DNA from: Chromera velia
Taxonomy: Eukaryota
Direction: 5' to 3'
Assembly (NCBI GenBank): GCA_018398765.1
Contig: JAHBMJ010000383.1
Location: 1-49,356 of the forward strand
Length of the DNA: 49,356 nucleotides
In this document: positions 9,196 to 45,030 of the stretch, piece after piece
Position numbering within the stretch: the first letter of the stretch is position 1
Layout: the number at the start of each line of letters is the position of its first letter
Program-made: the position numbers and the translations under genes
Notes under the pieces: model-generated
Seen by the model: the letters and a program-made list of their open reading frames with translations, nothing else
The model's database searches: none
Told to the model about the DNA's origin: nothing

Positions 9196-9238
<43 letters not shown>

Positions 9239-9300
9239 TGTGTGTATGTGTGTGTGTGTATGTGTGTGTGTGTGTGTGTATGTGTATAACTGGTGTGTGT
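7774..9300. repeat. Cluster of imperfect (TG)n/(TGTA)n microsatellites
   Basis: Visible in sequence; source of the many HT/VC-repeat spurious ORFs. Confidence 0.95.
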
Positions 9301-11551: not shown

Positions 11552-11696
11552 TTTTGCTTGGTCATTTCATTCCCCCGTTGCGTTTATATCCATTGATGGA
11601 TTGGCAGACCTGGCGGGACATCAGAAGGCCCGAAGGTCAAGTAGTTTGTGTCATGTTAACTTGTCTCTTTTTTTTTTTCAGGATTAGATTCTGCTC

Positions 11697-11727
11697 GAGG
11701 ACGAGTAGAGTTAGGGGGGGGAGTGGT
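11697..11727 (+). promoter_or_regulatory. Polypurine tract
   Basis: Purine-rich GAGGACGAGTAGAGTTAGGGGGGGGAGTGG immediately before the 3' LTR. Confidence 0.8.
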
Positions 11728-12213: not shown

Positions 12214-12730
12214 ACGAGCATCCCGCACTTAAGATGATGCTGGGTTCACTGCCTGTGGCTGAGCGGGATTGACAAACAATTCATCAAGGTATCCTCCCCA
12301 AGAAAAGTCCAGCCACACATTGTGCAGAACGCAACAGACCAAAGTGTATTTATTCTTTTATCACTTTAACATAGGCGTGGAGCAGTCGAACGAGCTAAAG
12401 GATTTTAAATTTGTTTTTCAACCAGCCGTACATATTGATCTCAACCTGCTTTCGCATCATCTTCAGTCGGGCATTAAATTTTTTTATCCACTGTCTTTTT
12501 GAGGTGGGTGCTGCAGCAATCTCACTCTTTAAAAAAGGCACGATCACTTTGTTGCGTGGCTCAGCCTTCGCGGGGTTGCGTGCGTTGGGCCGGGGCACTT
12601 GCATGATTACGGAGGGATTTGTGCGGATCAGCACTCTTGCTGTATGCATAGGGCCCTTGGCAATTGCAATGCTTAGGCATGCATGCCGGGGCCTGAACGA
12701 TATGTAGCGCATGTCCATGCATGCATGTCG

Positions 12731-19136: not shown

Positions 19137-20038
19137 CCCGGCAGTGACCTATGTGATAATAGACCCTATTTGGGGCTCTCAGATGGTAAAAAAAATAAAA
19201 ACACTTTGTATAGTAAAGTTAAGCCTATATATAATATGGTTATGACTTTTTTAACACTTTTAAAGGTTTTTTACACATTTTAGCTTGTTTAAAAGTTTAT
19301 ATATTTGCCTTAAAAAAGCTTTAAAAAGGCTTCTTAACTATAGGTATAACATAGATGGGGGCAGGTCCCCTGGAGCGCAGGGAGAGTTCCTTGGATTGCC
19401 AGTGTCTGAGACTCAGTCTAGTAATATACGGTAATACATAGGATCAACAGATGGAAAACAACGATGCAGACGATGAAAACAATGTACAGCTTGTATCTCT
19501 TAGCATTGCGGGGTTACTGGAAACTTAGCATTGCGGGGTTACTGGCAACAGACAATATGCTTAACGGGGTATTGCATGGTAGACAGAGAGATCTGAGGGG
19601 GTGACTGGGGGTGCCGGGTCACCATGGGGCGGCGGGCGGTGGCGGGGCCTCAGCGTCAGTGCGGGGGCTGAGTGTGCAATTCGGAAGGCTCACTAGATCT
19701 AGATATACAATTCTGTGTACCAAATGTTTGAGAGATGCTGGCGTTTTCATAAAAACACCCCTATTTAGCCTACATTTTTATCTCATAATGATTGCCACCT
19801 CCATGATACGTATATTGCCCCCATAGTTGGGAGACCTTTTTAAAGCCTTTTTAAGGCAAATATATAATCTTCTAAACAAGTTAGAACATGTAAAAAACCT
19901 TTAAAAGTGTTAAAAAAGTTATAATTATGCTATATATAGGCTTAATTTTACTATATAAAGTGTTTTTAATTTTTTTACCATCTGAGAGCCCCTTACATAA
20001 GTGAAATAGGGTCCATTATCACATAGATCACTGCCGGG
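19137..20038. mobile_element. Non-autonomous TIR element (~215-bp TIRs, CCCGGCAG termini, 2-bp AT TSD; CMC/EnSpm-like)
   Basis: About 19137-19350 is the reverse complement of about 19812-20038, with an 11-bp indel. Flanks are CGC-AT and AT-GCG, so the empty site would read CGCATGCG. The superfamily is inferred from termini and TSD only. Confidence 0.8.
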
Positions 20039-21060: not shown

Positions 21061-22875
21061 ATGGGGCCAGCGTGGTCAGTTAAAGTTCTGCTAACGCTTG
21101 GACTCCTCCATCTTCTTCTGCCTGCACAAGCATCTCTGACATGCAGCAGTTCAACAGACAGGGACACTTACCTGAATGCACACTTTCTTCCGGACAGTTG
21201 TTGGACAGCCTTGACCTACAACGACGTCCAATACATTTATGACATCACCCGCTTGATCAACAACCACGGGCACGGAGGCAACCGGGTCCTCGAGTCCCTC
21301 TGCGGGTCCGTCGGCACTTACTACTTCTACTGCAATCACACGTCAGCTGACATCTACAGTGCCGAGAAGGCGGGGTTGATCACTCAGATCTGCGAGGTGT
21401 CTGGTGTCACCGTGACCAGTCAGGACACAGTCAGGTCGGACTGTCTGGCGGGGACCGGAGGGCCGACATCGTCGGGAAGTACAGTAGCGGCCTCGACAGT
21501 GTCCTCTCACGATGCGGCAACTGACTGTTGGACAGCGATAGGGGGGTTGGTGTATGACATCACCAGTTACATGACCATCCACCCTGGAGGGAAGTCCAAC
21601 CTGGTGGCGCGTCTCTGCGGCTTGGATGGCACGGACGTGTTTCGAGATTACCACCCGGACAGTTACCTCCAAGGGGCGATAGACGGGGGTTTCATAGAAC
21701 TCCAAGGGCCCTTGAGCGGATCTCTGACGAGCAATTCCCTCAGCACTACGTACACAGGAATCACGTTGAGTACCCTGCAGAGTCACGCTACGACAACGGA
21801 CTGCTGGACACGGGTCGGTCAGTGTTGCGTGAGAGCATGCATGCTTCCAGTCGGTCAAAACACTGAGAGGCACTTGGCCTACAAATAAGTAACCACTGGG
21901 CGAAATGAGTGGCACTTGTCGGAAACATTTTGATTGTTTGATAAATGTCTCTCAGTGTGCATGTCTCTAAGTGAGAAAAAGAGAAATGGGGAGAAATCAC
22001 TGTTTTGACAGTGTCTGTCGATCTTCCTGTCTCTCTGTCTGCATTTCTGTACTATGGCTGCATCCCGAGCCGTTGAGTCGTTTTTGTCTTGTCACTTCTT
22101 GTTCTGTCTCTTCGCTCAGGTTGGAGACTTCGTGTATGACGTGACAGAATTTCAAAATGCGCACCCGGCAGGCCCCACAGTCTTTACGTGTGGGGGCGAT
22201 AGCACGAACATCTTCAGGTCAGTCAGTCGGTCCATCAGTCCATATTGATTTGGATAGACTACTGTTGGGATGCATTCTCTTTTGTGTTTGTCTCGACCTA
22301 TCCTTTCTGGCTTCTCTTTGTTGTACCTTGTTCGTTCACGACTTTCCTTCCTTCCACAATTTCTGTCATCCACTGGAACATTCTTTCCTTTCCTTGCCTC
22401 TTAGGTGCTGTATAGGGGGGGAAATTGTTGTCTTCAGTTAGAATACTGAGAGGGCAACGCGCAAATGTGCAGTTGGCCCCACTTTTTGCACGTATGTATG
22501 TTTGTTTCTTTGTTAAGGCAACACCTTTGTTCGGATGTTGTTCTTCGTTGAACAGTCGCATTCGAATTCATTGGATACCTTCGAACGTTCTCAGGGGGCA
22601 ACACCCGAACGAGTACCTGACGAGAGATGAGATCACAAAATACCTCAAGGGTCGTCTTTCCGTCTCTGTCTGGTCCGACAGCATCGAGGAAGAAGCATAC
22701 TTCTCCACCCTCACGACGACAACAACGGTGTGTGTTTATTCCTTCCTTCTCTAGCTCTTTATTCTTTTGGACCGCGCTTCCAATGCCATACAGACGACTG
22801 CCCGACGTAGTAGCTTCCGCCAGATGTTTATACACACCTGCTCCTCTGTCCCCCCCCCCCCCNNNNNNNNNNNNN

Positions 22876-22919
<44 letters not shown>

Positions 22920-22974
22920 CTCGCTCTCGCTCTCTCTCTCTCTCTCTCCCTCTCTCTCTCTCTCTTTCTCTCTC

Positions 22975-23011
<37 letters not shown>

Positions 23012-23066
23012 CTCGCTCTCGCTCTCTCTCTCTCTCTCTCCCTCTCTCTCTCTCTCTTTCTCTCTC

Positions 23067-23103
<37 letters not shown>

Positions 23104-23158
23104 CTCGCTCTCGCTCTCTCTCTCTCTCTCTCCCTCTCTCTCTCTCTCTTTCTCTCTC

Positions 23159-23199
<41 letters not shown>

Positions 23200-23254
23200 C
23201 TCGCTCTCGCTCTCTCTCTCTCTCTCTCCCTCTCTCTCTCTCTCTTTCTCTCTC

Positions 23255-23299
<45 letters not shown>

Positions 23300-23362
23300 C
23301 TCGCTCTCGCTCTCTCTCTCTCTCTCTCCCTCTCTCCCTCTCTCTCTCTCTCTTTCTCTCTC

Positions 23363-23413
<51 letters not shown>

Positions 23414-26400
23414 AGTTGCGGGTGTGTGTAGTTGTGGATGTGTATGCATGTACTTGTGCTCTAAGTAAAACAGCACGGGAACTGTATGAGGCGCCCAGGT
23501 AATGCGAGATGCACAGTCAGTCAAGATGTGGATAGAGCTCTCTCTTGAATTCGCTCTCCCTCCCGTTCGGGTTAGTTGTCATGAGTCCATGCAGGTGTTG
23601 TATTCTCTTTTTTTTTTCTGCATAAAAGTAAATGCAGGTGCTGTATTCTGACATGTCGAGCCACAGCAGCTCTTCCGACTGCTGGGTTTCCGTCCACTGC
23701 ACTGTGTACGACGTCACAAATTTTCTCGACGACCACACGGGAGACAGTCTCTTCTCCGACAACGGAGGCATCACAAAGTAAGTAAGTGGGGGATGGGGCC
23801 ATTCAAGTAAGTGGGGGATGGGGCCATTCATTCATTGTTGCCATGCATGGATCTGTGAATGCATCCATCATCCGATCTTTGGTGTTTGTTTGTTTGTTTG
23901 TTTTGTTTGTTTGTTTTTTGTTTGTTTGTTTGTTTGTTTTTTGTTTGTTTGTTTTTTATTTATTTGTTTGTTTGTTTGTTTGTTTTTTGTTTGTTTTTTA
24001 TTTGTTTGTTTGTTTGTTTTTTGTTTGTTTTTTGTTTGTTTGTTTGTTTATTTGTTTGTTTTTTGTTTGTTTGTTTGTTTGTTGTTTGTTTGTTTGTTTG
24101 TTTGTTGTTTGTTTTTTTGTTTGTTGTTTGTTTGTTTGTTTGTTTGTTTTTTGTTTGTTTGTTTGTTTGTTTGTTTTTTGTTTGTTTGTTTGTTTGTTTG
24201 TTTTTTGTTTGTTTTTTGTTTGTTTGTTTTTTGTTTGTTTTTTGTTTGTTTGTTTGTTTGTTTTTTATTTATTTATTTGTTTGTTTGTTTGTTTGTTTGT
24301 TTGTTTTTTGTTTGTTTTTTATTTGTTTGTTTGTTTGTTTGTTTGTTTGTTTGTTTTTTGTTTATTTGTTTGTTAGTTGTTTGTTTGTGTGTTTGTTTGT
24401 TTTTTGTTTGTTTGTTTGTTTGTTTGTTTGTTTTTTGTTTGTTTGTTTGTTTGTTTGTTTTTTGTTTGTTTTTTGTTTGTTTGTTTGTTTTTTGTTTGTT
24501 TGTTTTTTATTTATTTATTTGTTTGTTTGTTTGTTTGTTTGTTTTTTGTTTGTTTTTTATTTGTTTGTTTGTTTGTTTGTTTTTTGTTTGTTTTTTGTTT
24601 GTTTGTTTGTTTGTTTGTTTTTTATTTATCTATTTGTTTGTTTGTTTGTTTGTTTGTTTTTTGTTTGTTTTTTATTTGTTTGTTTGTTTGTTTTTTGTTT
24701 GTTTGTTTGTTTTTTGTTTGTTTGTTTTTTATTTATTTATTTGTTTGTTTGTTTGTTTGTTTGTTTGTTTTTTGTTTTTTATTTGTTTGTTTGTTTGTTT
24801 CTTGTTTGTTTGTTGTTTGTTTGTTTATTTATTTGTTTTTTGTTTGTTTGTTTTTTGTTTGTTTGTTTGTTTGTTTGTTTGTTTGTTTGTTTTTTGTTTG
24901 TTTGTTTGTTTGTTTGTTTGTTTGTGTTTTTGTTGGCCTTTTAGCTTCACGCTTAATTCCCTTGTTTGGTGCATTGAGTTGATTGATTGCAGAAATTGCG
25001 GCACAGACATCACGAATCTGTTCGATGCGATCAGACACCCGAACTCGTACCTCAGGGTGGCCACACTGAAGGGGGCAGTGAAGAAGGGGAGGCTCTCAGG
25101 GTGCAACGAAAACACACTGCATGACACAAGCCTGACGGAAAGAAGCGCATATGAAATCACGGCCACAGCCACTTACACAATCCAGTATGGAGTCACGGGG
25201 GCGGCTGGATTCACAGGATCGACATCAGACATTGCGGCGGCAATCTACGGGCGAATGGTGCGTGCATTTACCTTCATACAGAAAAAAAAAATGAGACATT
25301 GCGGCAGAAATCTTGAGACGAATGGTGCGTGAGAAACAAAAAGGGAGCGAAGGGGGGGAGAAGGGCAGATATGTGCCTTGGATAACACAACTGCAGACAG
25401 ACCGAAAAGGGTGAAATAGGGGGACCCTATACTTCATTGGGAAATATGAAATTCAAAGTCTTACTCTCTTTCCCTCTCTCCCTCTCTTTCTTGTTTTTTC
25501 TCTCTGTTCTGCTGATTCGGTGTCTTCTGCTCCTGTTTACAGGGCGGGTTTTCCAGAGGGTTTTCTGTCTCTGTTTCCAGCTGCACGGCTGCCTCAACCA
25601 ACGTTCTCCAGTGCACAATGACGCTGGGATTCAAGGACTACGACACGATTGAAGACATCCTCTTGTTCATGGACCATCCGAGGGGTTTTGCTAAGGCGAC
25701 CTTCCAGACTGTAGACCCAACTGCTACTTCAGGTCCCTGGGTGGGTGGGTGGGTTGTATTGGGTGGTAGTAGGTAAACTTGGGTTGCCGGAATACTTGAA
25801 ACAAATGTGACAGAGAGCGGGAAAGTTGATGTCGCCTTCAACTTTTTGTTGATGATAATTTTTCAAAATTTCAGTCTCAAAGCTGCACACATCAATGTTT
25901 CCCATGCTGATTCATCTTCTTGCCGTGTCTTTGTTTTTTTGAACATAAATCTTCCTTCTTCCTTCTGTCTGCCTCTGAATTTCTTGCCTCTCAAGTTCAC
26001 CCTGCCCGCCCTCTCTCTGTCCCTTCTATCAGGCCCCACCATCTCGGTCAGCAATTCCCGCAGAAGAACGCAGGAGGAACACCAAGCAGAGATCCGGAGA
26101 AGGTCCCTCCAGTTGGCTTCACAGGTCAGTCAGTTTGAAGATGGCACCAACGTTCGTCAGAATATGTTGTGAGCAAATCTAGAAATTTGCTCGACAAAAT
26201 AGGATGTTTGGATTAAGTGCGCACGTCCCATCTTTGCATCTCTAGCTGTCTTAATCTTCATCGGTTCCCACCTGATGTGTTCCTGAAATGATGTCTCCTT
26301 TTCCTTTTTTCGTTTCATTTTTGGCTGCCCTTTCTTCCATATTCTCTGTCCACACTTGCAGGCTCCAATGGACGCACCACAGTCGCTTGCAGTCCAGGGG

Positions 26401-29400
26401 TGTGTCTTCTCTGCATTGTATGGGCATGCACGCTTGTGTGCGTAGATACAGTTGCCGGATGTGTCTGCCCGCATGCCCAATAAATCAATATCCATCAGTC
26501 CATCCATCCACCCGATTATGTTGTATTCCTTCAGGCCTCCTTGGGGACCTCTTCTCTCCCGCAAGTGGGGATCGGCCAGGTGAGGGGGGGGGGATAGGGG
26601 CAGCTAGGGGGACGAAGAATCAGATTGGGATGGGATGGGAAATAATAAACAAACAAGCATCGTGGACGGGAGCCAATTCAGGTGGCAGTGCACAAACAAT
26701 CAGACGAAGATTGATTAGCCTGTCGTTGATTTCCACAACGATCGAATGGATCTGCTGTAAGTTAGTTGGCTGGCGTTGCATAACTTGCGCGAAGAACCTA
26801 TGCATTACAACTTAGGGGAAAAACTCATGAATCTGTACACGATCAAGCTCAGTGAAGAGAAACGCGAACTTCTTTCTGTATTGATCCGTATGGAACGATG
26901 TTTTCTTCGTGGACTGTCAATAGAATTAATTGTGTGTTCGAACAATTGAGCTGCAGGTGGGGGATCACACCACCTCAGCGGACTGCTGGGTGGCAGTGCA
27001 TTCGAAAGTATACGACTGTGCCCAGGTGCGTTAATTCGTAGACTGGCCCAACGTTGGGTCTATAGGGAATCAGACGGCCGCCTTGCAAGGTGACACCCCG
27101 AGTGTCGCGATCCGATCAGTTCTGTTTTGTGCTTTGACTGTTCTGTTCAGTCAGTGAGTGAGAGAAACAGGGTATAAATTCGATTCTCCCAGGTGTTCTC
27201 TTTATTGACCAATATGCGTGGAAACGAATAATGTGTATTCCTTTGCCAGACAGTTCGGGGATATATTCACATTTTGCCATCTTTTTGACGTTTTGCCACC
27301 AAATCTTTGTGTGTGCGGTGAGCGCGTGAATCATTTTTTAGCTCTTTCTGTCCTTCTCCCTTTCGCTTTTTCTCTGTCTTTCTCTGTGCGTGGCTGTCGC
27401 TCTTAAAGTCTCTCATGATCTCTTCATAGCTAAGAAAATGACCCTTTACCGAGAGATCAAGCTTTTGCACCTTGACTCTAGTGTAGACACATTCGATCCA
27501 ATGTTGTGCAAGAGAAATGAACAGGCAAGAGCCCGTAGCTCACTTCTTGAACTTAGTACCTTTACATGCATGAGTTCAGGGTGCAACTTCCCATCCCGGA
27601 GGTTCCCTGTTCAACAAGGGCTTCTGCGGCGTCGACTCGACCTCATCCTTCAACTCCAAACACGCACTGTCGTACCTGGACGCAGCTCGCATGAGCAACA
27701 TTGGATGCACTCAGGTCGGTTTCCGTTTGGGGCTCTATGGAAAATTGAAATCTTCATCGACTGCATGGAGAGAAAGGGGATGTCATCGGCCTGCAGGGAA
27801 TGAAACAGATCATGCACTGAAGGAAGCGGTAAGCCTGCAAAGGCCGGGAGGTTAATTTGATCTGTTCGGCTGTCATTTTAAGGGGTGGACAAGAAGAAGA
27901 ATGATGACACGTAGAGCCCCGCATGACTGAATTCGGTGAAAGCATCCGTGCGTTCATTCATGCAGGTTGCGACACTTGCAAACCAGATGGGGGCCCGTCT
28001 CTCGGCGGCCTCAGTTCCCGGTGTGATGCCCTCAGTGACTGTCAGCCTCACAGGGGGCGGCACAGAGGCTCTCGAGGCCCATTCAAGCTCTTCTGACTGC
28101 TGGATGGCGATCTGGGGAAATGTCAGTCAGTTGTTACTTCACTCTGTCAGTCTCCTTTTGACGGTCTCATACTTCAGCCAGGCCTCCTTGAAGTTCAACG
28201 TGCTTCCTTGTCTCTAACTTTCTGCCTCCGCAATTAATGTCGGCATGTGAAGTCTCTATCTGCGACCACGGCTCTCTCCAAAGATTCCTTTTAGGTCCCT
28301 ACAGGGAAGCTTGTTGTTGTCTTGAAGTGCATATTCGTTTCAGTGAGGCGCTTCTCGACCTTACATATGAGCTTTAATCGTCACGTATCTGCAGGTGTAC
28401 ACCGCTGGAACGACCATCAGCCAGCACGACGGGGGGTCGGCTGTGGTGGCTGCGCTGTGCGGCATTGACGCGACGGCCTCGTTCACGTGCTGGCACGGAA
28501 CAGAAGAGCTGAACGATGCGATCGCAGACTGGGGATTCGCCCTTGTGGGCACAACGACGTCGCAGCTGGGGAGTGGGTGCTCGTGGAGCGCTCCCGCGAG
28601 TGAGTGAGTGAGTGAGTGAGGGAGTGAGGGAGTGAGGGAGTGAGTGAGGGAGTGAGCGAGAAGGGGAGACAGAGAGAGTCGAAGCGTGGAAGGATGGACT
28701 GGGTGAGAGATTTGGCGAAGAGGAGGAAATGTTTTTGTCTGCTTGTCCGGCATACTGTGAGCCTTTGGTAGCATGATGTACCTGCATGACACATCAATTG
28801 AGCCGCACATGCATGCATGCTCATTTTGCCCCTGTGTGCATCATGAAACTGTTTCTACTGCCTTGTCCTCTTTGAATGTTTGCGTCTCTTCTCTGACTTT
28901 GAGTTCTATTCTGTTCTATGCTATCTTTTTTCTTCATGACAGATCTGGGAGGCGTCGAAGGGACCGAAGTTGCAGCACATAACACAGCGTCCGATTGTTG
29001 GGCTGCCATCAACGGGTAAGAGAGTAAGTGCATGAGGCAGCTAGGCGGCTAGTCAGTCAGAAAGCTGCCGGCACTACAGCAGGGCATGCCGGGGCCTTTG
29101 ACCTCTTTTTTGATGGGCTCTTGCTTGAATGAAGACCCAACCGAAGCAAAGCACAGCATAGTACAGCGAGATAGCCAAAACGCGTCATTTCGGTTTGCGA
29201 GAAAGGAAGTGCGACAGACTCGGCGGACTTGCACTTGTCTTCATTCTTTGCCAGGGTCCATGCAGATTATCATGCCACGTTTTTAGTTTTTGCCGCCCCC
29301 CGGGGTTCCCCCGAACACCCATCAGTTCTTCTTCCTTCTCGGCCATTTATTGTTTTGATTTGATCCGATCGAATCTGATTCTTCATCTATGTGGCATGCA

Positions 29401-30871
29401 GGTACGTGTTCGACCTGACCAACTACGTGTCCAAGCACACTGGTGGGTCGGGATCCATCACCTCTGCCTGTGGGACAGACGCGTCGTCCAGCTTCAATAA
29501 GAACCACAAAGTCGGGTACATGACCACTCTCTACGTCAAGTCAGTCTAGACTGACTGAGCTTAGAACAAAATTGGGGTAGGGGACAAAGAGTGAGTGCTC
29601 TGGAGAGAGGATGTGCATTGTTTCCCTTCCCATGTTGTTAGGCCACTGAATGAACCAACTGTTCCCCTTCGAGAGAGACACTTAAGTGAAGTGAGAGAGT
29701 GCAGCAGCTTGTATGGGCTCCGTGTAGAGACTCTCAATGCCGAAACATCAATCGTTCCCCGCAGTATGTGCATGCATGGCGAGACATGCAATCAATGACA
29801 ATTATACACGCACATCACGTGCATGCGCGCCCAGGCGGAGTAGCACGTTCCCATCTGAGTCAATGAATGGTAGTACAGGAGCACTTAGCACAAAGCACAT
29901 TCATATGAATATTGATTGAGACACCAGGAGTCGAATGTGAATGCTTCAGCTCTCGCCACAGTTTTCGTGAAGAGTGAAAACTCTAACAAACTTGACTCAT
30001 TGCCCACGTTAAAAAACAAAGACTGAGGGGGATGGACCATCGAGAGAAGGCGCTGTAAAAGGACACGATGCTGTCCGAAGAAGCGGGACAGCTAGCTGCA
30101 ATAAAAGGCACCCACTCTCTTCTTGTTCAGTCTCAATTTACGAGAGAGAAAGAGTTGTTCTTACATCATACACATTTGTGGAGGTCTGCTTGTGTGGTTG
30201 CATGCAGAGGAATGCCCGTCAAAGGATCCCTCAGCTCTGCTGTCCCAACGCCCTCCCTAGGCAACGCCAACTACCCTGCTGTAAGCGCAGACGAACTGGC
30301 CCAACACAACACGGCTTCCAACTGCTGGGTGGCAATTCATGGGTAGGCAGTTGCCACGGACCGCTCTTAATTGTCTTTTGAGCAACAAGTCTTAGAAGAC
30401 AGTCTACGTAATTGTCTGAGCCCCCCGTCTGCATATTGTCTGGCAGCGCTATTTTGGAATTGATCGATCGAATGGTTGGCTGCCTACACTTTGTCCCATG
30501 CGAGTCTAGGCCATATGAAGATCTTGAGATGAACTTTTCTTTCTACAGTGAGTGATCTTTGGTTGAATGTTCTTTGCTTGCAGGTACGTCCTCGATGTCA
30601 CTGGGTTCCTCAACCGACACACAGGAGGAGCTTCAACAATTACACCCTCCTGTGGCGCAGATGGAAGCGCATCTTTTGACGGGGCAGGACACCCAGAGGT
30701 ACCTGCACCTTCCTCCTTCTTTCCTTCCTTTTTCCTCTCTTCTTTCCTTCCTTCCTTCCTTCCTTCCTTCCCTCCTTCCTGCCTTCTTTCTTCCTTCCCT
30801 CCTTCCATACTTTCTTTCTTTCTTTCTCTCTTGTGTGTGTATGTGTGTGTGTGTATGTATGTGTGTGAAAG

Positions 30872-30904
<33 letters not shown>

Positions 30905-33900
30905 GATGGAAAGAGAGAGAGAGAGAGGTACCGCGACTACATTCATGTGCTTCCCATGCCATTCTCCCCCCCCAAATGTCTTTGCTTCATCATGCATGCA
31001 TGCAGTCCTATCTCGCAACGATGGTCAACAACGGCCATGCTACCATCTTTCCTTTCATACAGAATTCTTTTTCATGCAAGTAAAAGCAAATCCTGTATGA
31101 AAGTAAATGCAGTCCTATCTCGCAACGATGGTCAACAACGGCCATGCTACCATCAAGGGGTGTCTTGGGGGAGCGTGTGGCAGTTCCGGTACAGACGGAG
31201 GCACCACTGACGGTGGCGGAGGCACAGACGGTACGACCCGTGAGTGCACTGCGTCCGAGCCCCAACCGCCTGCTGACGTCATCATCGACTCCAAAGAATT
31301 GGCCACTCACAACAGCGCTGCAGACTGCTGGCAGGCAATTGGTTGCGGGGTTTACGATGTCACTGCTTACTCGCACTCAGGCGGACAGGGCTTCATCACA
31401 GCCAAGTGCGGCAAAGACGCACATGCTTCATTCTCCGGAAAACACCCAATGACCTACCTCCAGGTACATCAGTGCGTCAGCCTTCCGCTCCCTCTTTCCT
31501 CCTCAGGCGTAGAAGTTCTTTTGCGCATGTTTGCCTCTTTACTGAGGCTGTTGCGCTCTAGCTGGCTAAAGAAACAGACAGACGACTTCGTGCACTCTTT
31601 CCACTCCTTTCTCTTCCTTATTGGGCGAACTGTTCTGTGCGCAGACTTTAGATGGACGGAATCTGTTTGCTTATTTCTTAGTTCTACTTGCGCTTTCTAG
31701 TGGCACTTTTCTGCTTCTGCACGAAAAGAAAGATGGAAGGAGGGACGGTCGAATTGCCTGTCCGACTCCGTCTCTCTACCTGTCCTCCGCAGGTGCTTCT
31801 TGACAAGGGCGCTATATTGAAGGGGAAAGCACAAACTAACACAGATGGAGGAGTGGACAGGCGCACGCCCATTTCCGCATCGGAACTCGCAAAGCACAAC
31901 AAAGCAAACGACTGCTGGAGCTGCATCAATGCGTGCGTCAATGAATGATTTGGGGGACACAGTGTCGGGCGGTGCCAGGAAGAAACTGCGATCGTGCTCT
32001 TACTGACCAATTGCCACCCAAATTACTTTCTTGTCCCTTTACATTTGGGGCATTTCTGTATGAAGTCCATTCTACTTCGTCGTTCCTGTTTCCCTCTTGA
32101 CCCCAACATGGACCGCTGCATGTGAATCAGTCAGACAGCTCGAGTCTATCACCCCTCGGTCGATCCACTTGAGGGAGGGAGGGAGGGAGAGAGTTTCCAG
32201 TCGATCGTGTCTCCCATGCATCCCTTATTCCATCCAACTTGAATCTCTTATTCCATCCAACTTGAATCCCTTATTCTATCCAACTTGAATCTCTTATTCC
32301 ATCCAACTTGAATCTCTTATTCCATCCAACTTGAATCCCTTATTCCATCCAACTTGAATCCCTTATTCCATCCAACTTGAATCCATTATTCCAGCCAATT
32401 TGAACAAACACGAACGCATTCACCTGAATGACACCACAACATGAACGCAGGCAAGTCTACAACCTGACCAACTTCCACGCCGACCACGATGCCGGGTCTG
32501 CCGTTGTCCTTCCGATGTGCGGGGAGGAGTCCACTCTTTCCTACCTCAGGGCTCATGACATGGCGTCCCTCGACGGTATACAGATTGAAGGAAGCTGTAA
32601 TCGGGTGGCTGAATATGTCAGTCGAGCAGCTGCGTGGCATGGCTTCATTGTCGCACAAGGATTTGTCAAACAAGTGAAGTGTAGTTGGGAGTTGTCGTTT
32701 CCTGTTGGAGTTTCTTATGTGCATGTTCGTGTTCTGAATTCGTCTTCTGTATTTCCAAAGCAACTCCCAAACCCCTTTATGCGTCTTCCTTTCCCTCTCT
32801 TACCTGTGCATGCGCAACCAAAACCACTGATCCTGAGAATAGAATGGAATGGGTGGCTGCGTGTTTGCCATTTGCATGCTTGGTTGCTCGCAGAACCCGA
32901 TCAAAATCATGATGTTTTCCAAAACTCTTTCTCTGCATGTTTGTGCATCCGTCTCTCTGTCTGCGTGCAGGCATTCATGATCCAGATGGTTCTCGACGGA
33001 GTCGCCCTCTTTGCCTTCATAATCGTTCCCATCATCTGTGCGTATGCGGCAAAGTATTGGTTCTCGGTCCGCTGGCAGGTTTGTCCGTCCTTCCTTCCTT
33101 GATTGTGGTCGCTCGCGGTAGAGGGGGATGAATGCATCGGGTGTGCACTGTCAAGAACGTACTTTCGTGAGAAGTAATTGAGACACATAGGGACTGGAAA
33201 ACGCGATAGCGGCTGTACTGTGGCAAGGGAGGAGAGCAAATAAGAAAAAGCATGGGAAAGAAAATGAGACAGTGGATTCGGGGCGCTGCCATCTATCACC
33301 TTCCCGCCTCGACCTGCCATGTTCTTCTTCTTCAGAGTTTTCTTCCTTCTTCACTCCTCTCCCACCTAGATTCCTGCATGGCCTGTCTCGTCTAAGTCCA
33401 CCCTGGTCCAACCCATCATCAGTGTAGTCTCGCCGTGCGCCTGCAGGACAGGTGGCTCCGTCGTCCTCTTGCGGAACCGAAAAAGGGGGCGTGGGGGCAC
33501 ACAATAAATGGGTGAGTGGGTGAGTGAGTGAGCGAGTGAGTGAGTGAGTGGGTGAGTGAGTGGATGAGTGAGTGAGTGAGTGCAAACGCGTACGTGTGAG
33601 TCAGAAAAGGTGTGCGAGAGAGCTCTGTATGCATGTAGCGACATGGCACTTCAAGTTGAACCTTCGGTCTTCGCTCCTGGGGGGTGTCTTCCCAGCGGTT
33701 AGACTGAGCTTGCCCAGGAAGGAGACCTGCCTCAAATGCGTTCAACGACCCCATCTATGCACTATCAAGACAAGCCGGGGTTTCCTATCACGCTGAACCC
33801 ACCCAAAGAACGGCAGCCCGCCCATTTGATCAATTTGGCCTTCTTTGGCTGGCATGCGCATCGCTCCCTCTCTAGCTGGAATTCAATCAAAACATCCGAA

Positions 33901-36221
33901 AAATATGATGGACAGTGAGGCGGTCATGTTTGACCAATGAGTTTGGAATATCTCTCCAACAGAACTGACAAACGCAAAAGCATATCGAGCTTCATGGACA
34001 CAAGATGCATTCCTTTCCGTTCAGGTACCTGGAAATGTCCTGGGCACTCTTTTACCTTCTCGTGTACTACTTGGTGATGACCATCGTGTTCATGGCGGTC
34101 TGGGCATATCACTACCTCAAATATTACCCCGTGAGTACCTGTCTGCCCTTAAGTATGCTTATCTGTAATGTCTATCTCTAGCCCTTCCTCTCCCACCTCC
34201 CCTGAGGGAGGACAAGGGGAGGCAGCTTGCAGTTGTCGAGGAGTTTTGTGATTTTTTGCTTCTTTCCTGCATGCACTTTGTTTGTCGGGGGGGGAGCTGC
34301 CAATCTTCCACTACTGCCTAGATTCCACTACTGCAAGGATTTCGCTACTTCATTTGCTCGCTGAGTGTATTACTTTCCTGCAGTCTCTGTTGCTTCGGTT
34401 TTTGCTTGGCTGTGCGAACCTGCCAGAGATAGACAAAATACAATAATGCATGCAATGCATATGCAAAAACAAATGTAAGAGCATCTCTAGATTTAAGGAA
34501 GAAAATTCGTTGACGAAATCGCCTTTGATGGATCCTGCAGGACGAGTACAAAATTGGCGGAGCTGCGGGGAGAAACGCTGTGTATCACATCTGTCTGGCG
34601 ACTTTGATAGGGACTCGCAGATTCACCTGGTCGTGGTGGCTACTCAGACTCCCATACGAGAGGGCTCTGAAGACACACTACGTGGTTGGTTGGTTGGTTT
34701 CCTTGCTTGTCTTCTGTCAATTATTTTTCTTCTGGAGCAGAGATTCCTCAACATACAGTGCACCATTTTATGCGGGCGGAAAGGCGGGAAGACGGGCGGA
34801 AATGTCTGACTGAACCTGTCATCAAAACATACGGATGCACAAAATGAACGTTTCTACATCACGGGCTTTACACACAAAATCAAAGTCTGTTGCGTTGTGC
34901 GTACATCGAAATAAATTTGCTGCTCCTTTCTTTTGCTTTGTTTGTTTCTTGCACATGTACTTTCGCTGCTGACCCATGAACATGCCCCCCCTTTTCATCT
35001 TACTTGAGATGATTGCGAAGGCGGTCAGTTTCATTTCCCCGCTGAGCTGCTGCCGTCCTCCCTCTATCCATCTATCCATGCATCCATCCGTCCATCCACG
35101 TCTCAGGTCGGAAAGGTTGCTGTCCTCTTTGTCCTCATGCACGGTCTTGACTATTTGATCGTGTTCGAAGGGACGCTTCCGGAGACGGTGGCCGTCTCCG
35201 CCTGGTACTTGCTGATCACGACCATTGTCGTGGGCGTCTTCACTGTGCCCAACATCAGAGTCCACTGGTCAGTCAGTCAGTCAGACAGACAGACAGTAAG
35301 TGAGTGGGACAACTCAACTCATCAAGCCACATACCTTCCTTTGAATCAATTAGCACGCATGAACACGCACTTTTGCTTGTGCGAAGGTCCCGATCATATG
35401 CATATGAAATGACGGGAAAAGTGTGTTATCGATACTTCTCTTTGTATGGGTATGTAGATAACATCAACGACCTAACAAGCCCCGTATAGCAAGCAGAAAG
35501 AGAGGAGGCGCTCAATGGCTGAGGGCTCTCCCAAGTGGATTTCTTTCATGATGGCATTCTAAGCATGCATGTGTTCGCTACTGTTCAAGTTCAGCCCGGA
35601 ATCTCCAAGTTGGCTTTCCAGGCGAGACCTGTAAGAAGAAAGTGCAAGCAAAAAAAGAAACAAGGGAAGCAACAAACAAGCAGGTATCAGCGAAGGAGAG
35701 CAGAAAAGAATGCGAGAAAGAGAGACGGCCCACAAAAATGAAGAAAAAGGAAAGAAGGCAGACCGGTTAGCGAGCGAATGGACAGCGGAAACAGTTGCCC
35801 GCTGCTCATTGGTGAACTCCTTCAAGTTTTTTCTTGTCTCTCTCTTAGATATTCGAAAGAGGCGAAACACGGTCTGGTCCGACTGATCGATCCATGCGGA
35901 GGCAAATTCAGTGCTCGACTGTAGAAGAGAAGAAAACCCCCCGAGTGATGCAGAATCCTCCCTTCTCTTTTTTTTTCTGCCTCTCCTTCTAAGTCTCTTG
36001 AGAAGAGGAAAAAGACAAAAGGAAACCGAAAGGCCTGTTGTAGACTTATTCATTCCACTTGAGGTGAACAAAAACGACCAGCAGTTTTTTATTTGGTGAT
36101 CGGAAACCAATGTCTTCCTCTTCTCTGTCAGAGAGCCCTGAACCATATCTCGATCGATCGCGCAAGAAACAGACAGAATACGCTTCGACTTCTCTTCGGC
36201 AATGGCGCGTGTGTGTGTTTA

Positions 36222-36270
<49 letters not shown>

Positions 36271-36929
36271 ACGTGTGTGTGTGTGTGTTGTTTGGTTGGT
36301 TGCAGGTATGGTATTTTTCGCGTCTCTCACTATCTGGCTCCCCTCATTGTGATCATTCTCCTTCTTCATCTGGCTGGTCTCTCAGCAGAGGGCGTACTTG
36401 CCCCCGGGTTCTATCTGACTATTGTATGGACGGCAGTCGCAGCAGGATTTTGGGTGTTTGACTATCTCCAGATGAGCATAGACGCCTACCTGTATCCTGT
36501 GAAGGTCACCGAACCTCCTGTACTGATACCGGCGGAGGGGGACGCAGCGTATGTCTGCTTTGTCGTCTCAAAGACAACCAAACTCTTCTGGGGCTGTTGG
36601 ATGTCTGTCGCCTCGACCCTCGCAGGATCGACGCTTTCTCATCCGTTCACGACTATTGTTAAGAAAACAGGAAAGGAAGCAGGTGAGTCAATGAGAACCT
36701 GAGGAAAATAAGGGGGTATCAGAGCCAAGAAGTCTACGCAGACGAGCATCGTTTGCCCCACTTTCCATTGTGATTCTTTTTTTTGTCTGTCTGTTTCTCT
36801 GTCTGCCATTTTCTCTCTCTTCCTCTTTCCTTGTCTCCGAGTCTCTCTGCCTCACTGTCTCTCTGTTTCTCTGTCACTCTATCTCTGTCTCTCTTCCTGT
36901 CTCTGTCTCTGTCTCTGTCTCTGTCTCTT

Positions 36930-37003
<74 letters not shown>

Positions 37004-37048
37004 CGATCTCTCATTTCTCTCTTTCTCTTTCTCTCTCTCTTTCTCTCT

Positions 37049-37082
<34 letters not shown>

Positions 37083-37712
37083 CTTTCTCTGCGTATGTCA
37101 GTACCAGTATGGGCCTCCTTCCCCCCCTCTGTCCCTTTGTCCATCCAACGATTCGTCCATCCTTTCCCATTTGTGTGTGTACTTCTTTCCTCATGCAATT
37201 TCCTCTGCTGGTTAATTTCCATGCATGAAAGCAGGCGAGAAGGCTCTAATGGAATTCGTCCTGAAGGTCCAGCCGGGACTTTCGTGGACTGCGCGGCTGT
37301 ACAGGGCGATCGAGAAGAGACAGCAGTCGGAGAAGGGTGAAAACTCTCTTGTCGGACAGACAAGCTGTCAGTCAGCGAGTGAGAAATGAGTCAGCAAGTG
37401 AGAGAGTGAGTGAGTGAGTGAGTGAGTAGGACACTTCCATCGCTACATTGATTCAGATCATAGCTGGGGAGAAAAGTGACAAAAAGCACAATCCGCAAAG
37501 CTCTGCCTCTTCACAGCTACAGGGAAGAAGGACAGCTGCAGAAATAATGAGAGTTCAGTGAGTGAGTGAGCAGGACACTTCCATCGCTACATTGATTCAG
37601 ATCATAGCTGGGGAGAAAAGTGACAAAAAGCACAATCCGCAAAGCTCTGCCTCTTCACAGCTACAGGGAAGAAGGACAGCTGCAGAAATACAACGCGATT
37701 TTAGTCGAGAGA

Positions 37713-37761
<49 letters not shown>

Positions 37762-39925
37762 TCTCTCCTTCCGCTCTTTCTTCGATATGCAGGCTGTCCA
37801 TGGCTCTACGTGACTGGCCCCTTTGGTGGCGGTTTGGCGGCGTTTGGCGACTTGAAATACTTTAGCACAATGGTTTTCGTCTCGGCAGGAGTGGGTGTCA
37901 CCCCTGTAGCTTCAATGGTCAGTCAATTGTTGTCATCTCACCCCTGTAGCTTCAATGGTCAGTCAATTGTTGTCATGTCACCCCTGTAGCTTCAATGGTC
38001 AGTCAATTGTTGTCATGTCACCCCTGTAGCTTCAATGATCAGTCAATTGTTGTCATGTCACCCCTGTAGCTTCAATGGTCAGTCAATTGTTGTCATGCAC
38101 ACCCTCACATTTACAAGGTATTCATATGAAGTCGGCTTTGAAGCCACCAACAAGGCCCTAGTGTCTCTGTATGTACATGTGTCTGCCTGTATGTTTTATC
38201 CACACTTCCTGGTATCCCACCGGATGCACACGTGTGTGCCAGTTTGTATCTCTCATCGGCAAGATCGATGAGACTGCGCATCGTAGCCTCCTGGCCTGCC
38301 TGCCTGTCTGCCTGCCTGCCTGATTGCCTGCCTGCCTGCCTGCCTGCCTGCCTCCTGTCTGTCTACCTGCCTGCCTGTCTGTCTACCTGCCTGCCTGCCT
38401 GTCTACCTGCCGGCCTGCATGCATGCCTGCCTGCACGTCTTTCAAAGGAACTTCCCCGTCGATTCAAATGCCCTCGCTGAGGGGACTCTGGTGTGCATGT
38501 GTGTGGGTCTGTCTGTCTGTCTGTGTGCATCTCTCTCACCCTCGGTCAAGGCTGCAGGTGCCTCTGTTTTCTGGACGGAAGGACAAGAAGGTCCACGTAG
38601 TGTGGTCGTTCCGGTCTCTGGGCCTTTTCCGACGCATCGCACCTTACTTCCAGGACATCCCAGCGGAGTCCTGCCATTTTCACTACACGATGCGGAAGGG
38701 AAAGGGGGAAAATGAGGCTCAGCAGGCGGAGGGATCGGGAGGAGAGTGGGCTCTCTCGGTTGGTTGCTGATTGGCAGGCACATTCGCTGTATTCTTGCAT
38801 TACATCATCCTCCATTCCTTCACTCACTCATTCATTCCTTTATTCATTCTATGCTGTTGACTGTTTGAGAGTGCACGTGGAGAGTTCCACGTCATCCAGA
38901 GGGCGCAGAAAAGCTAGCAAGCAGAAGAGAGCCGTCTACATTTTTAGCTGCATAGCACAGTTGGTATGTTTTGAGTTCTCGATCGCCAGTGAGGGAGAAT
39001 GAACAAAAAGGTAGGGTCGGATGATTCCAACAGAAGAAAGTAGCCCCGTATCTCAGTCAGGCTCCCCCCCCTGAAGCGGCCACTGTGCTTCCACGAGCTT
39101 CCGTCTATCAATGCAGCCACAGAAAGCACAGGACGGGGATGAGATGAGGTGAGATCGATTCGGGCACGCTGTTCGCAGGGGAATCGTCAGAATTTCATCT
39201 GAAAGGATTGCTAGCTGCAAATGTGGTACACACCCTTTCGTGTGGGGCTGTGTCGGTTTCCCCTGACTACATTCCGTCCTGCCTCTGTGCAGATTAAGAA
39301 TGGGCGTCCGGACCTCCCGGCCATCTTGAGGGGGGTTCGAGAGCAGGTGTCCGGAGACAACAAGTAAGTAAGTAAGTAAGTAAGTGAGTGAGTAAGTAGC
39401 CGTCTGACCGCACAAATGTCTGATCAGCAGAACTGAGCAAGCTACCAACGCTGAGTGACATCGACCCATGCCGATCAACCGATCAATGTATCGAGTCACC
39501 GTCGGATGCCCGACAGTTCAACGAGAGCAACCGAAGCGCATGCAGGGAAACTGTGCGACCCACAGATACAGACATCAAGTGACCTGAATAAATTTTTGCC
39601 TGTGTACGTTGCAGCTCTTCCTCGTGTGCTCGATCAATCCTCCGTCTCCTTTTGTACATTTCTGGACACCCCTCTCTGATGCACACAGCCAATCAATCTC
39701 TGACCCAAAGATATTCTCTGTCTGTCTGTCTGTCTGTCTGTCTTTCTGTCAAGCATCCGATTTATCATGGCATCATGGCATGCGTGCAGATGGGACGTCG
39801 GGGTTTTTGTGTGCGGTCCCGACGCGATGGTCTGCGATGTTCTGCGCACAACGAGCCAGTTGAACAAGGAGCTCAATGGACAGGGTCTATATTTCCACAC
39901 TCACTCAGAGAGCTTTCAAATGTGA
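21061..39925 (+). CDS. Membrane flavocytochrome: signal peptide + 10 cytochrome b5-like heme domains + ferric reductase (FRD/NOX-family) TM, FAD and NAD(P)H domains; ~1,674 aa, ~30 exons
   Basis: Manual GT-AG model with consistent phases: 21061-21813, 22120-22217, 22595-22727, 23638-23777, 24993-25257, 25543-25732, 26033-26124, 26535-26579, 26957-27025, 27580-27714, 27966-28121, 28395-28599, 28943-29015, 29402-29539, 30208-30342, 30584-30698, 31113-31463, 31793-31932, 32451-32616, 32971-33078, 33447-33511, 34025-34130, 34541-34684, 35107-35267, 36306-36682, 37235-37366 (or -37336), 37793-37917, 38558-38758, 39293-39363, 39790-39925; total 5025 nt. Motifs: ten H..xCW...(V)YD...H.G...CG.D...H units; His pairs Hx13H and Hx12[31 protein letters not shown]; terminal HSESF. 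Donors at 34684, 37366 and 38758 are the least certain. Confidence 0.85.
22863..23400. repeat. Assembly gap (13 N) followed by a (CT)n microsatellite with higher-order periodicity
   Basis: N run at 22863-22875; recurring CGCTCT/CCCT/TTTC/CACT interruptions. Lies in intron 3. Confidence 0.95.
23881..24935. repeat. ~1.05-kb imperfect (TTTG)n microsatellite in intron 4
   Basis: Visible in sequence. Confidence 0.97.
32221..32392. repeat. 23-bp minisatellite (C(C/T)CTTATTCCATCCAACTTGAAT), about 7 copies, intronic
   Basis: Visible in sequence. Confidence 0.93.
37428..37690. repeat. Intronic direct duplication of about 120 bp
   Basis: AGGACACTTCCATCGCTACATTG...CTGCAGAAATA occurs twice about 145 bp apart. 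Confidence 0.92.
37897..38097. repeat. 40-bp tandem repeat x5 spanning an exon end and its splice donor
   Basis: Unit GTCACCCCTGTAGCTTCAATG|GTCAGTCAATTGTTGTCAT; the first copy encodes VTPVASM. Confidence 0.93.
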
Positions 39926-41827: not shown

Positions 41828-42823
41828 TTACAAAAACGACGCATCTCTCTTCCAGTTGGGTGTTTGGGTCACGCGGTCGAGACGCGCGATTGCCCCGGCA
41901 GTCATACACACCATTTCATACTCAACCGCTTCGGGAGTCGTGTCGTTGTGATAGTGCCCCCCATACCGTCTCCCCCCCGCCTCTCCCCACCCGTGTGTGT
42001 GCACGAGACGGAGGTCCATGCCTGGGTCTGCGGATGTGGCAACGAACATAAACCGCATCGGTGCCTCTCCCTCCATCCACCGGAGCCACTCATCAACCCC
42101 CTCAGGAGTGCGAATTGGTTCCTTGCTGAAATCTGGCATACAGTGAAGACGCGCCCTTCCCTTCTTCAAAACCAATAACCCCCCAAGGGAGACGGGACGC
42201 GACTCCCCGTAATGCGCCTTCAGACAGTCAGCGATGCACTGAGGGACATCCTTCCCTCTCTCATCCTTCCCCGCACGCCCGCGGAGACGGATTCTGAGTA
42301 CCTCGCCCGGTTTACCTTCTGTCAGCATCACATTGAGGAGAACTGAGGATTTGTTCGAGACGTCGTCCTTCACCTCGTGTTTCTCCTTTCCCGTCTCCTC
42401 TTGGGGAATCATCAGGGCCACCTTGGAAGTGGATGAACCCGTGATGCACGTATTGCAGATCAACTCGGAATTCATGCCATAGACGTGACACGGCCCCGCA
42501 CCCGCACCCACAAGGCATGTGGGGTGCGATGTGAGCCCCAGTTTTTCCACTGCCTGCCTGACTAGGTCGCTGAGGTCGTACAGTTTTTTCTTGTTCGGCC
42601 TCGGAAGAAGGTTGTCAACACCCCCCACATCTAGGATCACATTGCCGTCTCCTGGGGAGGAGAGGCCCTGAAATGAGGACAGGTAGGGCGATTCTCTGAG
42701 GTCGGGGCAGGGAGTGACTTCGACCTCGACCTCTTCAAAGAAAGCGGGAAGGGAGCGAGAGAGAACCTCCTTGACCTCCGTCAGAGACGGCACGTTGAGG
42801 GATTGAACTTCCAAGGGGTACAT
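41828..42823 (-). CDS. C11orf54: Ester hydrolase C11orf54/PTD012 homolog (DUF1907), intronless, 331 aa
   Basis: Family-like motifs PSL.E...L, CPDLR..P, DVGG..NLLP, GAGAGP, HCMPDFS, DPGMDLRL.HTH and GGHYH.DTTP..VEY. First ATG at 42823. Confidence 0.9.
   Translation of the reverse strand: MYPLEVQSLNVPSLTEVKEVLSRSLPAFFEEVEVEVTPCPDLRESPYLSSFQGLSSPGDGNVILDVGGVDNLLPRPNKKKLYDLSDLVRQAVEKLGLTSHPTCLVGAGAGPCHVYGMNSELICNTCITGSSTSKVALMIPQEETGKEKHEVKDDVSNKSSVLLNVMLTEGKPGEVLRIRLRGRAGKDERGKDVPQCIADCLKAHYGESRPVSLGGLLVLKKGRARLHCMPDFSKEPIRTPEGVDEWLRWMEGEAPMRFMFVATSADPGMDLRLVHTHGWGEAGGRRYGGHYHNDTTPEAVEYEMVCMTAGAIARLDRVTQTPNWKRDASFL

Positions 42824-44992: not shown

Positions 44993-45030
<38 letters not shown>

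What the first reader, a model, noticed from the sequence alone, without database searches (positions are those of the whole stretch)
21061..39925. Ten tandem cytochrome b5 domains fused to a ferric reductase: candidate single-chain eukaryotic multiheme electron wire
Seen: about 30 phase-compatible exons give a signal peptide, ten b5-like domains and a full FRD module. Every b5 unit keeps both His at the axial-ligand positions (HGHGG/CNH, HPGG/DYH, HPAG/GQH, HTGD/IRH, HPGG/SKH, HDGG/CWH, HTGG/KNH, HTGG/AGH, HSGG/GKH, HDAG/RAH). Known: FRE/FRO/NOX proteins move electrons from cytosolic NAD(P)H through FAD and two bis-His membrane hemes, and b5 domains bind one bis-His heme b. Inference: the signal peptide plus an odd number (7) of TM helices puts the b5 array outside the cytosol. 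That would give up to 12 hemes in series, analogous in function to bacterial decaheme conduits but built from b-type modules, perhaps to reduce insoluble or distant Fe(III). I do not know a described protein with this architecture, but I have not searched.
Basis: partly seen in the sequence, partly recalled or inferred. Interest (0 to 1): 0.92.

Follow-up and report, generated by a model that had tools for sequence, protein, structure and literature searches.

The report
Ten-heme cytochrome b5 ferric reductase fusion
One gene of the alga Chromera velia, matched domain for domain by a dinoflagellate transcript, fuses ten cytochrome b5 domains to a ferric-reductase-type membrane enzyme; it is predicted to pass electrons from the cytosol onto a ten-heme outer chain, likely to reduce ferric iron.

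Summary
Observation confirmed and extended. 31 GT-AG exons (21061-39925) give one 1674-aa frame: signal peptide, ten bis-His b5 units (4 + insert + 6), an extra helix, a six-helix four-His FRD and a dehydrogenase. RNA contigs in 4 of 4 runs splice b5 unit 10 to the membrane part (32616 to 32971). The public model (Cvel_17069, Chromera velia) holds only one b5 and skips five exons. An intronless dinoflagellate-like contig (L001) encodes the same chain, 37% identical over 1455 columns, and eight of ten units group by position in a tree. A cercozoan transcript (Mataza) has ten b5 units on an unrelated FRD. In 22 of 39 bacterial genomes of a Saccharibacteria class a membrane-anchored b5 gene follows an FRD gene. 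A cysteine pair and loop charges place the array outside the cytosol. The NOX histidine is absent. Ten literature searches found no description. The electron path into the array is likely; a rigid 'wire' is not shown (low-confidence linkers, a 170-aa break), the acceptor is unknown, and C. velia reportedly has no surface ferric reductase activity. New variant of a known kind; interest 0.8.

The parts
21061..39925 (+). Whole gene, 31 exons, 1674 aa (public fragment Cvel_17069 covers exons 18, 21-23, 25, 26, 28-30 only)
21061..21132 (+). Predicted signal peptide (aa 1-24)
   Evidence: hydropathy; a matching hydrophobic N-terminus in L001, P0171 and P0156; no SignalP run
21160..21390 (+). b5 unit 1 (His69, His93)
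21487..21708 (+). b5 unit 2
21763..22658 (+). b5 unit 3 (exons 1-3)
23641..25089 (+). b5 unit 4 (exons 4-5)
25141..25713 (+). Non-heme insert, ferredoxin-like alpha/beta fold predicted (SEA-like is a lead only); present at the same place in L001
26033..26579 (+). Exons 7-9: linker with a basic RRR motif; boundaries uncertain, absent from L001
26957..27714 (+). b5 unit 5 (exons 10-11)
28059..28553 (+). b5 unit 6 (exons 12-13)
28957..29539 (+). b5 unit 7 (exons 14-15)
30284..31160 (+). b5 unit 8 (exons 16-18)
31287..31463 (+). b5 unit 9 (exon 18), the only unit in the public model
31874..32607 (+). b5 unit 10, membrane-proximal (exons 19-20), with an extra conserved Cys pair and a near-constant short link to TM0
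32986..33054 (+). Extra helix TM0 (exon 21), spliced directly to unit 10
34038..36468 (+). FRD helices TM1-TM6 with His1282/His1296 (spacing 14) and His1346/His1359 (spacing 13); Tyr at the NOX His119 position
36490..39925 (+). Cytosolic dehydrogenase: HPFT, GPFG, GxGxTP, WxxR, GRP, CGP and terminal ESF motifs

Best explanation
[quoted passage not shown] Shown: one spliced chain, ten bis-His units, four membrane His, dehydrogenase motifs. From established FRE/NOX biochemistry: NAD(P)H to FAD to inner heme to outer heme. Inferred: the array is extracytosolic and disulfide-stabilised; unit 10 takes the electron from the outer heme (about 0.75); further units pass it on by transient encounters rather than as a packed stack; the acceptor is ferric iron (about 0.55 given the path).
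For: Fusion. FRD core: four His in 12 of 12 family sequences and Tyr at the NOX His119 site in 12 of 12 (criterion from PMC3591440, and PMC9421330); Foldseek top hits NOX2/DUOX, E 1e-16. Topology: K+R 6, 5, 2 in alternate loops against 1, 2, 0, 0 in the others; Cys pair in 363 of 369 units of proteins with a hydrophobic N-terminus against 191 of 260 in the rest, and in none of the units fused to acyl-CoA oxidase, FMN dehydrogenase, FAD_binding_2 or TBC domains. Unit 10 as partner: it is the unit kept in the one-b5 Chromera paralogue P0171 and forms its own clade, 99/93; its C-terminal Cys and the start of TM0 are invariant. Three distant FRD lineages are coupled to Cys-pair b5: alveolate fusion, Mataza fusion (20% identical FRD), and a gene pair in 22 of 39 bacterial genomes. 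Precedent for outer heme domains on FRE: DOMON-FRE (PMC3591440).
Against: [quoted passage not shown] No heme binding, location or iron regulation was tested. No iron-transport gene lies beside it: neighbours are a decayed retrotransposon, DUF1907 and APC10. Pfam FAD_binding_8 is not detected in the family. Many multi-b5 arrays have no FRD on the same chain (only 2 of the 40 hits scanned do), so arrays need not be electron relays.
Confidence: 0.45

Rival explanations
1. Same electron path, different acceptor: the array is an extracytosolic reductant supply or capacitor that feeds a luminal or cell-wall enzyme, repairs oxidised proteins, or vents surplus photosynthetic electrons.
For: [quoted passage not shown] Fits the reported lack of ferric reductase activity in C. 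velia. Position-specific conservation of units would suit defined protein partners.
Against: No partner gene nearby; no catalytic domain on the chain; the FRD is FRE-type, a group whose characterised members mostly reduce metals.
Confidence: 0.22
2. The array is a heme trap and relay: units bind environmental heme and hand it to the FRD, which reduces it for uptake, like Candida Frp1/Frp2 with CFEM hemophores.
For: FRE-related Frp1/2 mediate heme uptake with hemophores related to the FRE outer domain (PMC9635878 abstract) and support heme reductase activity (PMC13581393 abstract). Flexible tandem heme binders fit a relay. Compatible with no detectable reduction of iron chelates.
Against: All 10 units keep the closed bis-His ligand set of redox cytochromes, whereas hemophores use exchangeable sites (recalled). 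No CFEM or NEAT domain in the orthologues scanned.
Confidence: 0.2
3. It is an atypical superoxide-producing oxidase, the reduced b5 hemes or the outer heme passing electrons to oxygen.
For: Symbiodinium makes extracellular superoxide in the dark (PMC6247811 passages). Exceptions to the His119 rule exist. Thr or Ser stands at what appears to be the Thr178 site in 10 of 12 sequences (by eye).
Against: His119 is Tyr in 12 of 12; Gly179 appears in 2 of 12; no EF-hand hit in the orthologues.
Confidence: 0.08
4. The array and the reductase are separate genes, or the distal units are shed or decorative.
For: The public model keeps only one b5 on the FRD. Basic RR motifs in linkers could be cleavage sites. 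Upstream joins were not tested with C. velia RNA.
Against: RNA joins unit 10 to TM0 in 4 of 4 runs; L001 is one intronless frame from signal peptide into TM5; 20 of 20 units in the two full chains keep both His.
Confidence: 0.05

Closest known systems
DOMON-bearing eukaryotic FRE clade (Naegleria, Albugo, Phytophthora; PMC3591440 passages)
   Same: FRE core with an extracellular heme-binding domain suggested to transfer electrons; signal peptide predicted in one member.
   Different: One or two DOMON domains there; ten cytochrome b5 domains here; b5 is not among the fused domains named in the figure legend and passages seen.
Fungal FRE and plant FRO ferric reductases (PF01794 + dehydrogenase)
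   Same: Six-helix four-His FRD, dehydrogenase motifs, extra N-terminal helix, no His119; ESM Atlas structural neighbours are these clusters.
   Different: A 1140-residue multi-b5 ectodomain; divergent FAD domain below Pfam detection; no reductive uptake reported in this alga.
DUOX and NOX (PDB 8wej, 7d3e)
   Same: Same fold; DUOX shares the layout ectodomain, extra helix, six helices, dehydrogenase.
   Different: No peroxidase-like domain, no EF-hands, no His119.
Plant CYBDOM proteins (PMC10784544, PMC10784552; search listing only)
   Same: Membrane diheme domain plus an outer heme domain, described as ferric reductases.
   Different: Cytochrome b561 core, one DOMON, no NAD(P)H dehydrogenase.
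Candida Frp1/Frp2 with CFEM hemophores (abstracts)
   Same: FRE-related membrane protein working with extracellular heme-binding domains.
   Different: Hemophores are separate CFEM proteins; here the heme domains are fused bis-His b5 units.
Bacterial multiheme conduits MtrC/OmcA/OmcS (recalled)
   Same: About ten hemes outside the cytosol, fed from inside.
   Different: Those are covalent c-type hemes packed in one rigid fold; here b-type sites in separate domains with variable linkers, no CxxCH motif.

Membership tests
FRD superfamily (FRE/NOX core) | Six-helix membrane domain | tested here: met
   Hydropathy; AlphaFold model of orthologue P0163 has TM0 plus six long helices; Foldseek NOX2 E 1e-16
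FRD superfamily (FRE/NOX core) | Four heme His in TM3 and TM5 | tested here: met
   12 of 12 sequences, spacings 14 and 13
FRD superfamily (FRE/NOX core) | FAD-binding domain | tested here: inconclusive
   HPFT invariant and NOX5 dehydrogenase fold matched, E 5e-9, but no Pfam FAD_binding_8 hit
FRD superfamily (FRE/NOX core) | NAD(P)H-binding domain | tested here: met
   GP(F/Y/H)GG, GxGxTP, CGP, ESF conserved; NAD_binding_6 above cut-off in five orthologues
FRE-type ferric reductase | Reduction of Fe(III) or Cu(II) | not testable with these tools
   No assay; a review reports no such activity in C. velia cells
NOX | Non-ligating His119 in TM3 | tested here: not met
   Tyr in 12 of 12 (criterion)
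NOX | Thr178-Gly179 in TM4 | tested here: inconclusive
   Position placed by eye without a NOX2 row: T/S in 10 of 12, G in 2 of 12
Cytochrome b5 domain (PF00173) | Profile match | tested here: met
   13 of 28 exons; 10 stretches in the L001 chain; PDB b5 hits
Cytochrome b5 domain (PF00173) | Two axial His | tested here: met
   10 of 10 here and 10 of 10 in L001
Cytochrome b5 domain (PF00173) | Heme b bound and redox active | not testable with these tools
   No spectra; models carry no heme
DOMON-FRE / CYBDOM | DOMON domain | tested here: not met
   No DOMON hit in exons or orthologues
Bacterial multiheme c-type conduits | CxxCH heme attachment motifs | tested here: not met
   None among the 38 ectodomain Cys
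Bacterial multiheme c-type conduits | Close-packed continuous heme chain | not testable with these tools
   No coordinates or heme distances returned; linkers pLDDT < 50
Frp1/2-CFEM heme uptake | CFEM hemophore domain | tested here: not met
   No CFEM hit
Frp1/2-CFEM heme uptake | Needed for heme use; heme reductase activity | not testable with these tools
   No assay
SEA domain (insert) | SEA fold or profile | tested here: inconclusive
   Atlas score 0.85 to a SEA cluster, rank 6; model pLDDT 49; best fold hits generic ferredoxin-like, Z 8.6; no Pfam hit

The most novel reading that the evidence does not exclude
A eukaryotic twelve-heme conduit: the conserved inter-domain disulfides hold the b5 units in a defined chain that carries photosynthetic or respiratory electrons many nanometres across the cell wall to mineral iron or to a partner cell, in chromerids and in the dinoflagellate family that includes coral symbionts; invented again in Cercozoa and mirrored by FRD plus b5 gene pairs in Saccharibacteria-class bacteria.
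Probability: 0.2. Interest if true: 0.93.

Novelty: new variant of a known kind. Interest (0 to 1): 0.8.

Why it matters
Multiheme extracellular electron transfer is known from prokaryotes with c-type cytochromes (recalled; one search listed only prokaryotic systems). A b-type, modular version in microbial eukaryotes would be new, and it is not a one-off: the ten-unit order is shared by Chromera and a dinoflagellate close to Effrenium (Symbiodiniaceae), so it predates their split. It gives a concrete, testable candidate for how these algae move electrons to the outside, whether for iron, heme or redox balance. It also shows a recurring partnership between FRD reductases and disulfide-type extracytoplasmic b5, hidden because gene models are fragmented and the FRD falls near or below Pfam cut-offs.

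Tried and rejected
No whole genome is held, so the paralogue count and iron-uptake gene set of this genome were not examined. No run on record as RNA was listed; four guessed-RNA runs were, and their splice joints show they are RNA. RNA cover of exons 1-18 and 23-31 was not obtained. Exon 1 against longer proteins found only a bacterial-type array; exon 26 found only the public fragment. Complex prediction of unit 10 with the FRD helices and three hemes gave no verdict (score 0.00, alignments unused); it is no evidence either way. The single-sequence model of the insert was poor and its fold search generic. No relative in viral contigs. The family FRD profile scores bacterial FRDs at 30 bits or less and Mataza at 43, so a direct transfer from those bacteria is not supported. 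A C. velia mercury transcriptome paper does not mention Cvel_17069 in text or in its one held supplement. A search for the disulfide of bacterial cytochrome b558 found nothing relevant, so 'Cys pair = disulfide' rests on co-occurrence only. No earlier finding of this scan matched. A plastid destination was considered: no Phe after the predicted cleavage site in either full chain (rule recalled), so not favoured, not excluded.
Full report
Observation. I rebuilt the gene from the sequence. Thirty-one exons between 21061 and 39925, each intron with GT and AG ends, join in phase to 5025 nt and 1674 residues without an internal stop. The chain reads: hydrophobic N-terminus, four b5 units, a non-heme stretch of about 170 residues, six b5 units, one helix (TM0), six further helices and a dehydrogenase. 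All ten units keep both axial histidines and a pair of cysteines. Of 28 exon translations scanned, 13 hit Pfam Cyt-b5 at E up to 0.1 and 5 pass the cut-off; the reductase exons alone give only a marginal NAD_binding_6 hit. An N gap lies in intron 3, and exons 7-9 are the least certain part.

Source and public annotation. Exon 26 retrieved a 524-aa protein labelled Chromera velia CCMP2878, Cvel_17069. That model starts inside exon 18, holds one b5, and lacks exons 19, 20, 24, 27 and 31; exon 24 carries the first membrane histidine. Where it shares exons with mine, the boundaries agree. It is named only as a b5 protein, which helps explain why the architecture was not noticed.

One transcript. 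Contigs of four runs from one study were laid on 32401-33505. All four show the joints 32616 to 32971 and 33078 to 33447 with GT..AG ends, no cover of introns, and loose ends at 32451 that match the end of exon 19 with one silent difference. So unit 10 is spliced to TM0 and on towards the reductase, and the public model's skip is wrong. The other joins were not covered by RNA of this species.

Relatives. A whole-library search with exon 1 gave 6597 proteins at E up to 0.001, of which 150 were listed. A search with the reductase part of the best relative gave 11 proteins among 7988 candidates; 8 carry Cyt-b5 and the other 3 begin within or after unit 10. They include Effrenium voratum (Symbiodiniaceae) and a Chromera paralogue with a signal peptide and a single b5 (P0171). 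A metagenome scan found two loci. L001 has no introns and matches the intron-bearing L002 in six blocks at 97-100%, so it is most likely an mRNA contig. Its frame encodes a signal peptide, ten b5 units with the insert after unit 4, TM0 and the reductase up to one frameshift in TM5; the near-identical P0163 is intact there. The Chromera model aligns to it in one piece, residues 10-1354, 36.9% over 1455 columns. P0163 is 77% identical to the Effrenium protein, so I infer a dinoflagellate. These relatives also contain the five exons that the public model omits.

Age and recurrence. In a tree of 84 b5 units (72 columns, supports rough), Chromera and dinoflagellate units group by position for units 1, 3, 5, 6, 7, 8, 9 and 10; units 2 and 4 do not. 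By plain identity the same-numbered unit is best in 7 of 10. The ten-unit order therefore predates the split of chromerids and dinoflagellates, and positions have kept their identity. A transcriptome protein of Mataza (Cercozoa) also has a signal peptide, ten b5 units, a helix and a full FRD, but its FRD is 20% identical, it has a long loop after the helix, and 9 of its 10 units fall in a Mataza-only clade (99/97). I infer an independent fusion; no FRE or NOX reference rows were in hand to test this properly. Actinobacterial, Ploeotia and Perkinsus arrays each form their own clade. Tandem b5 arrays as such are thus common, up to 11 units, and only 2 of the 40 hits scanned carry an FRD.

A bacterial parallel. 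One locus, from a Saccharibacteria genome, has a full FRD gene overlapping a membrane-anchored b5 gene. Among 151 genomes of its class, 77 have an FRD match, 48 a b5 match and 39 both; in 22 of the 39, the seed included, b5 lies within 3 kb downstream on the same strand. All 22 such b5 proteins read out have a hydrophobic N-terminus and the Cys pair. These genomes are related, so the count is not 22 independent events. Their FRDs are distant from the alveolate family. Three lineages thus couple an FRD to an extracytoplasmic b5, which is the best argument that the two are redox partners.

Topology. Loops after TM0, TM2 and TM4 hold 6, 5 and 2 basic residues; the stretch before TM0 and the loops after TM1, TM3 and TM5 hold 1, 2, 0 and 0. 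The AlphaFold model of P0163 has seven long helices. The Cys pair occurs in 363 of 369 units of proteins with a hydrophobic N-terminus and in 191 of 260 of the rest, a class that includes N-truncated fragments; it is absent from arrays fused to acyl-CoA oxidase, FMN dehydrogenase, FAD_binding_2 and TBC domains. The set of 171 proteins is redundant and one enzyme fusion fell in the first class by threshold. I infer disulfides and an extracytosolic array. Cell surface, ER, vacuole and endosome cannot be told apart.

The reductase. Four histidines are present in 12 of 12 family sequences, with the FAD and NAD(P)H motifs. Foldseek ranks NOX2 and DUOX first and the Atlas lists FRE clusters as structural neighbours. 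The NOX-defining His119 (PMC3591440 passages; PMC9421330 passages) is Tyr in all 12. It is an FRD member of FRE type by sequence, not a NOX; its activity is untested.

How it likely works. NAD(P)H to FAD to two membrane hemes follows from the family. Unit 10 is the likely next carrier: it is the unit that the one-b5 paralogue keeps, it has an extra invariant Cys just before TM0, and the link is nearly constant in length. Beyond it the picture weakens. Units start 86-129 residues apart, linkers vary between species and have pLDDT under 50, pTM is 0.53, and the insert puts about 240 residues between units 4 and 5. That suggests tethered carriers acting as relay and store more than a packed wire, although 38 ectodomain cysteines, several conserved outside the cores, could stiffen it. 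The acceptor is open. Fe(III) is the family default, but a review states that C. velia has no ferric reductase activity and takes iron up non-reductively (PMC7676907 passages; I did not see the primary paper). If iron is the target, an internal compartment or an untested condition is needed. Rivals are supply of reductant to an outer enzyme (YedZ-YedY precedent), heme capture as with Frp1/2 (abstracts) and superoxide production (passages).

What is known. The FRD survey lists ferredoxin, Rieske, DOMON and peroxidase-like domains as fused electron carriers, and one or two DOMON domains as the outer heme module of an FRE clade; b5 is not among them in the passages and section I read. Ten searches of the open library listed no paper describing a b5-FRD fusion, a tandem b5 array or the bacterial gene pair; I judged most from listings only. 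Subscription papers and bioRxiv supplements were out of reach, and automated databases may list the architecture for Mataza or Effrenium without comment.

Verdict. Real, expressed, conserved and apparently undescribed. It works like a DOMON-FRE with its outer heme module multiplied tenfold and made of b5. It is a member of the FRD superfamily and not of the c-type conduit families. New variant of a known kind, interest 0.8; a true long-range wire has probability about 0.2.

Noticed in passing
L008:3109-5264 and L039-L058: FRD gene followed by a membrane-anchored Cys-pair cytochrome b5 gene in 22 of 39 genomes of a Saccharibacteria class that hold both; not found described.
   Followed up: partly
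L003:4416-8124, L004:4470-7536; G002, G003: Actinomycete genomes with 22 and 20 b5 matches, in clusters of secreted 5-8-unit arrays and DUF2231-b5 fusions; DUF1775 and CopC genes lie nearby in L003.
   Followed up: partly
P0010/P0156 and P0030 (Mataza, Cercozoa): Second ten-b5 FRD fusion on an unrelated FRD, and a five-b5 single-helix paralogue.
   Followed up: partly
P0171 (Chromera velia): Paralogue with signal peptide, one b5 and a full FRD: the minimal form and the easiest to express.
   Followed up: partly
P0025, P0016: Arrays of 5-6 b5 units without the Cys pair fused to a multi-helix membrane domain; P0025 is labelled succinate dehydrogenase, putative, in Perkinsus marinus.
   Followed up: no
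P0006, P0009, P0035, P0024: Eleven-unit anchored b5 array; six-unit type I membrane array in Ploeotia; five-unit array with a C-terminal hydrophobic tail; five b5 units fused to a Rab-GAP TBC and a rhodanese domain.
   Followed up: no
window 1040-12230: Decayed LTR retrotransposon with protease and RNase H hits, similar terminal repeats near 1100-1560 and 11720-12210, interrupted by an unrelated insert at about 5400-9900.
   Followed up: partly
window 41831-42823 (-) and 44150-46450 (+): Intronless DUF1907 gene and a spliced APC10 gene downstream; no link to the finding seen.
   Followed up: partly
window 23589-23651, 25229-25330, 30998-31150, 37890-38100: Short duplications of splice-site regions (acceptors of exons 4 and 18, donors of exons 5 and 28), which may mislead gene predictors.
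   Followed up: no
window 33010: T read as G in all four runs, a Phe to Val change in TM0; strain difference or assembly error.
   Followed up: no
window 19180-19360 and 19830-20020: Long imperfect inverted repeat upstream of the gene, possibly the ends of a small DNA transposon; seen by eye only.
   Followed up: no
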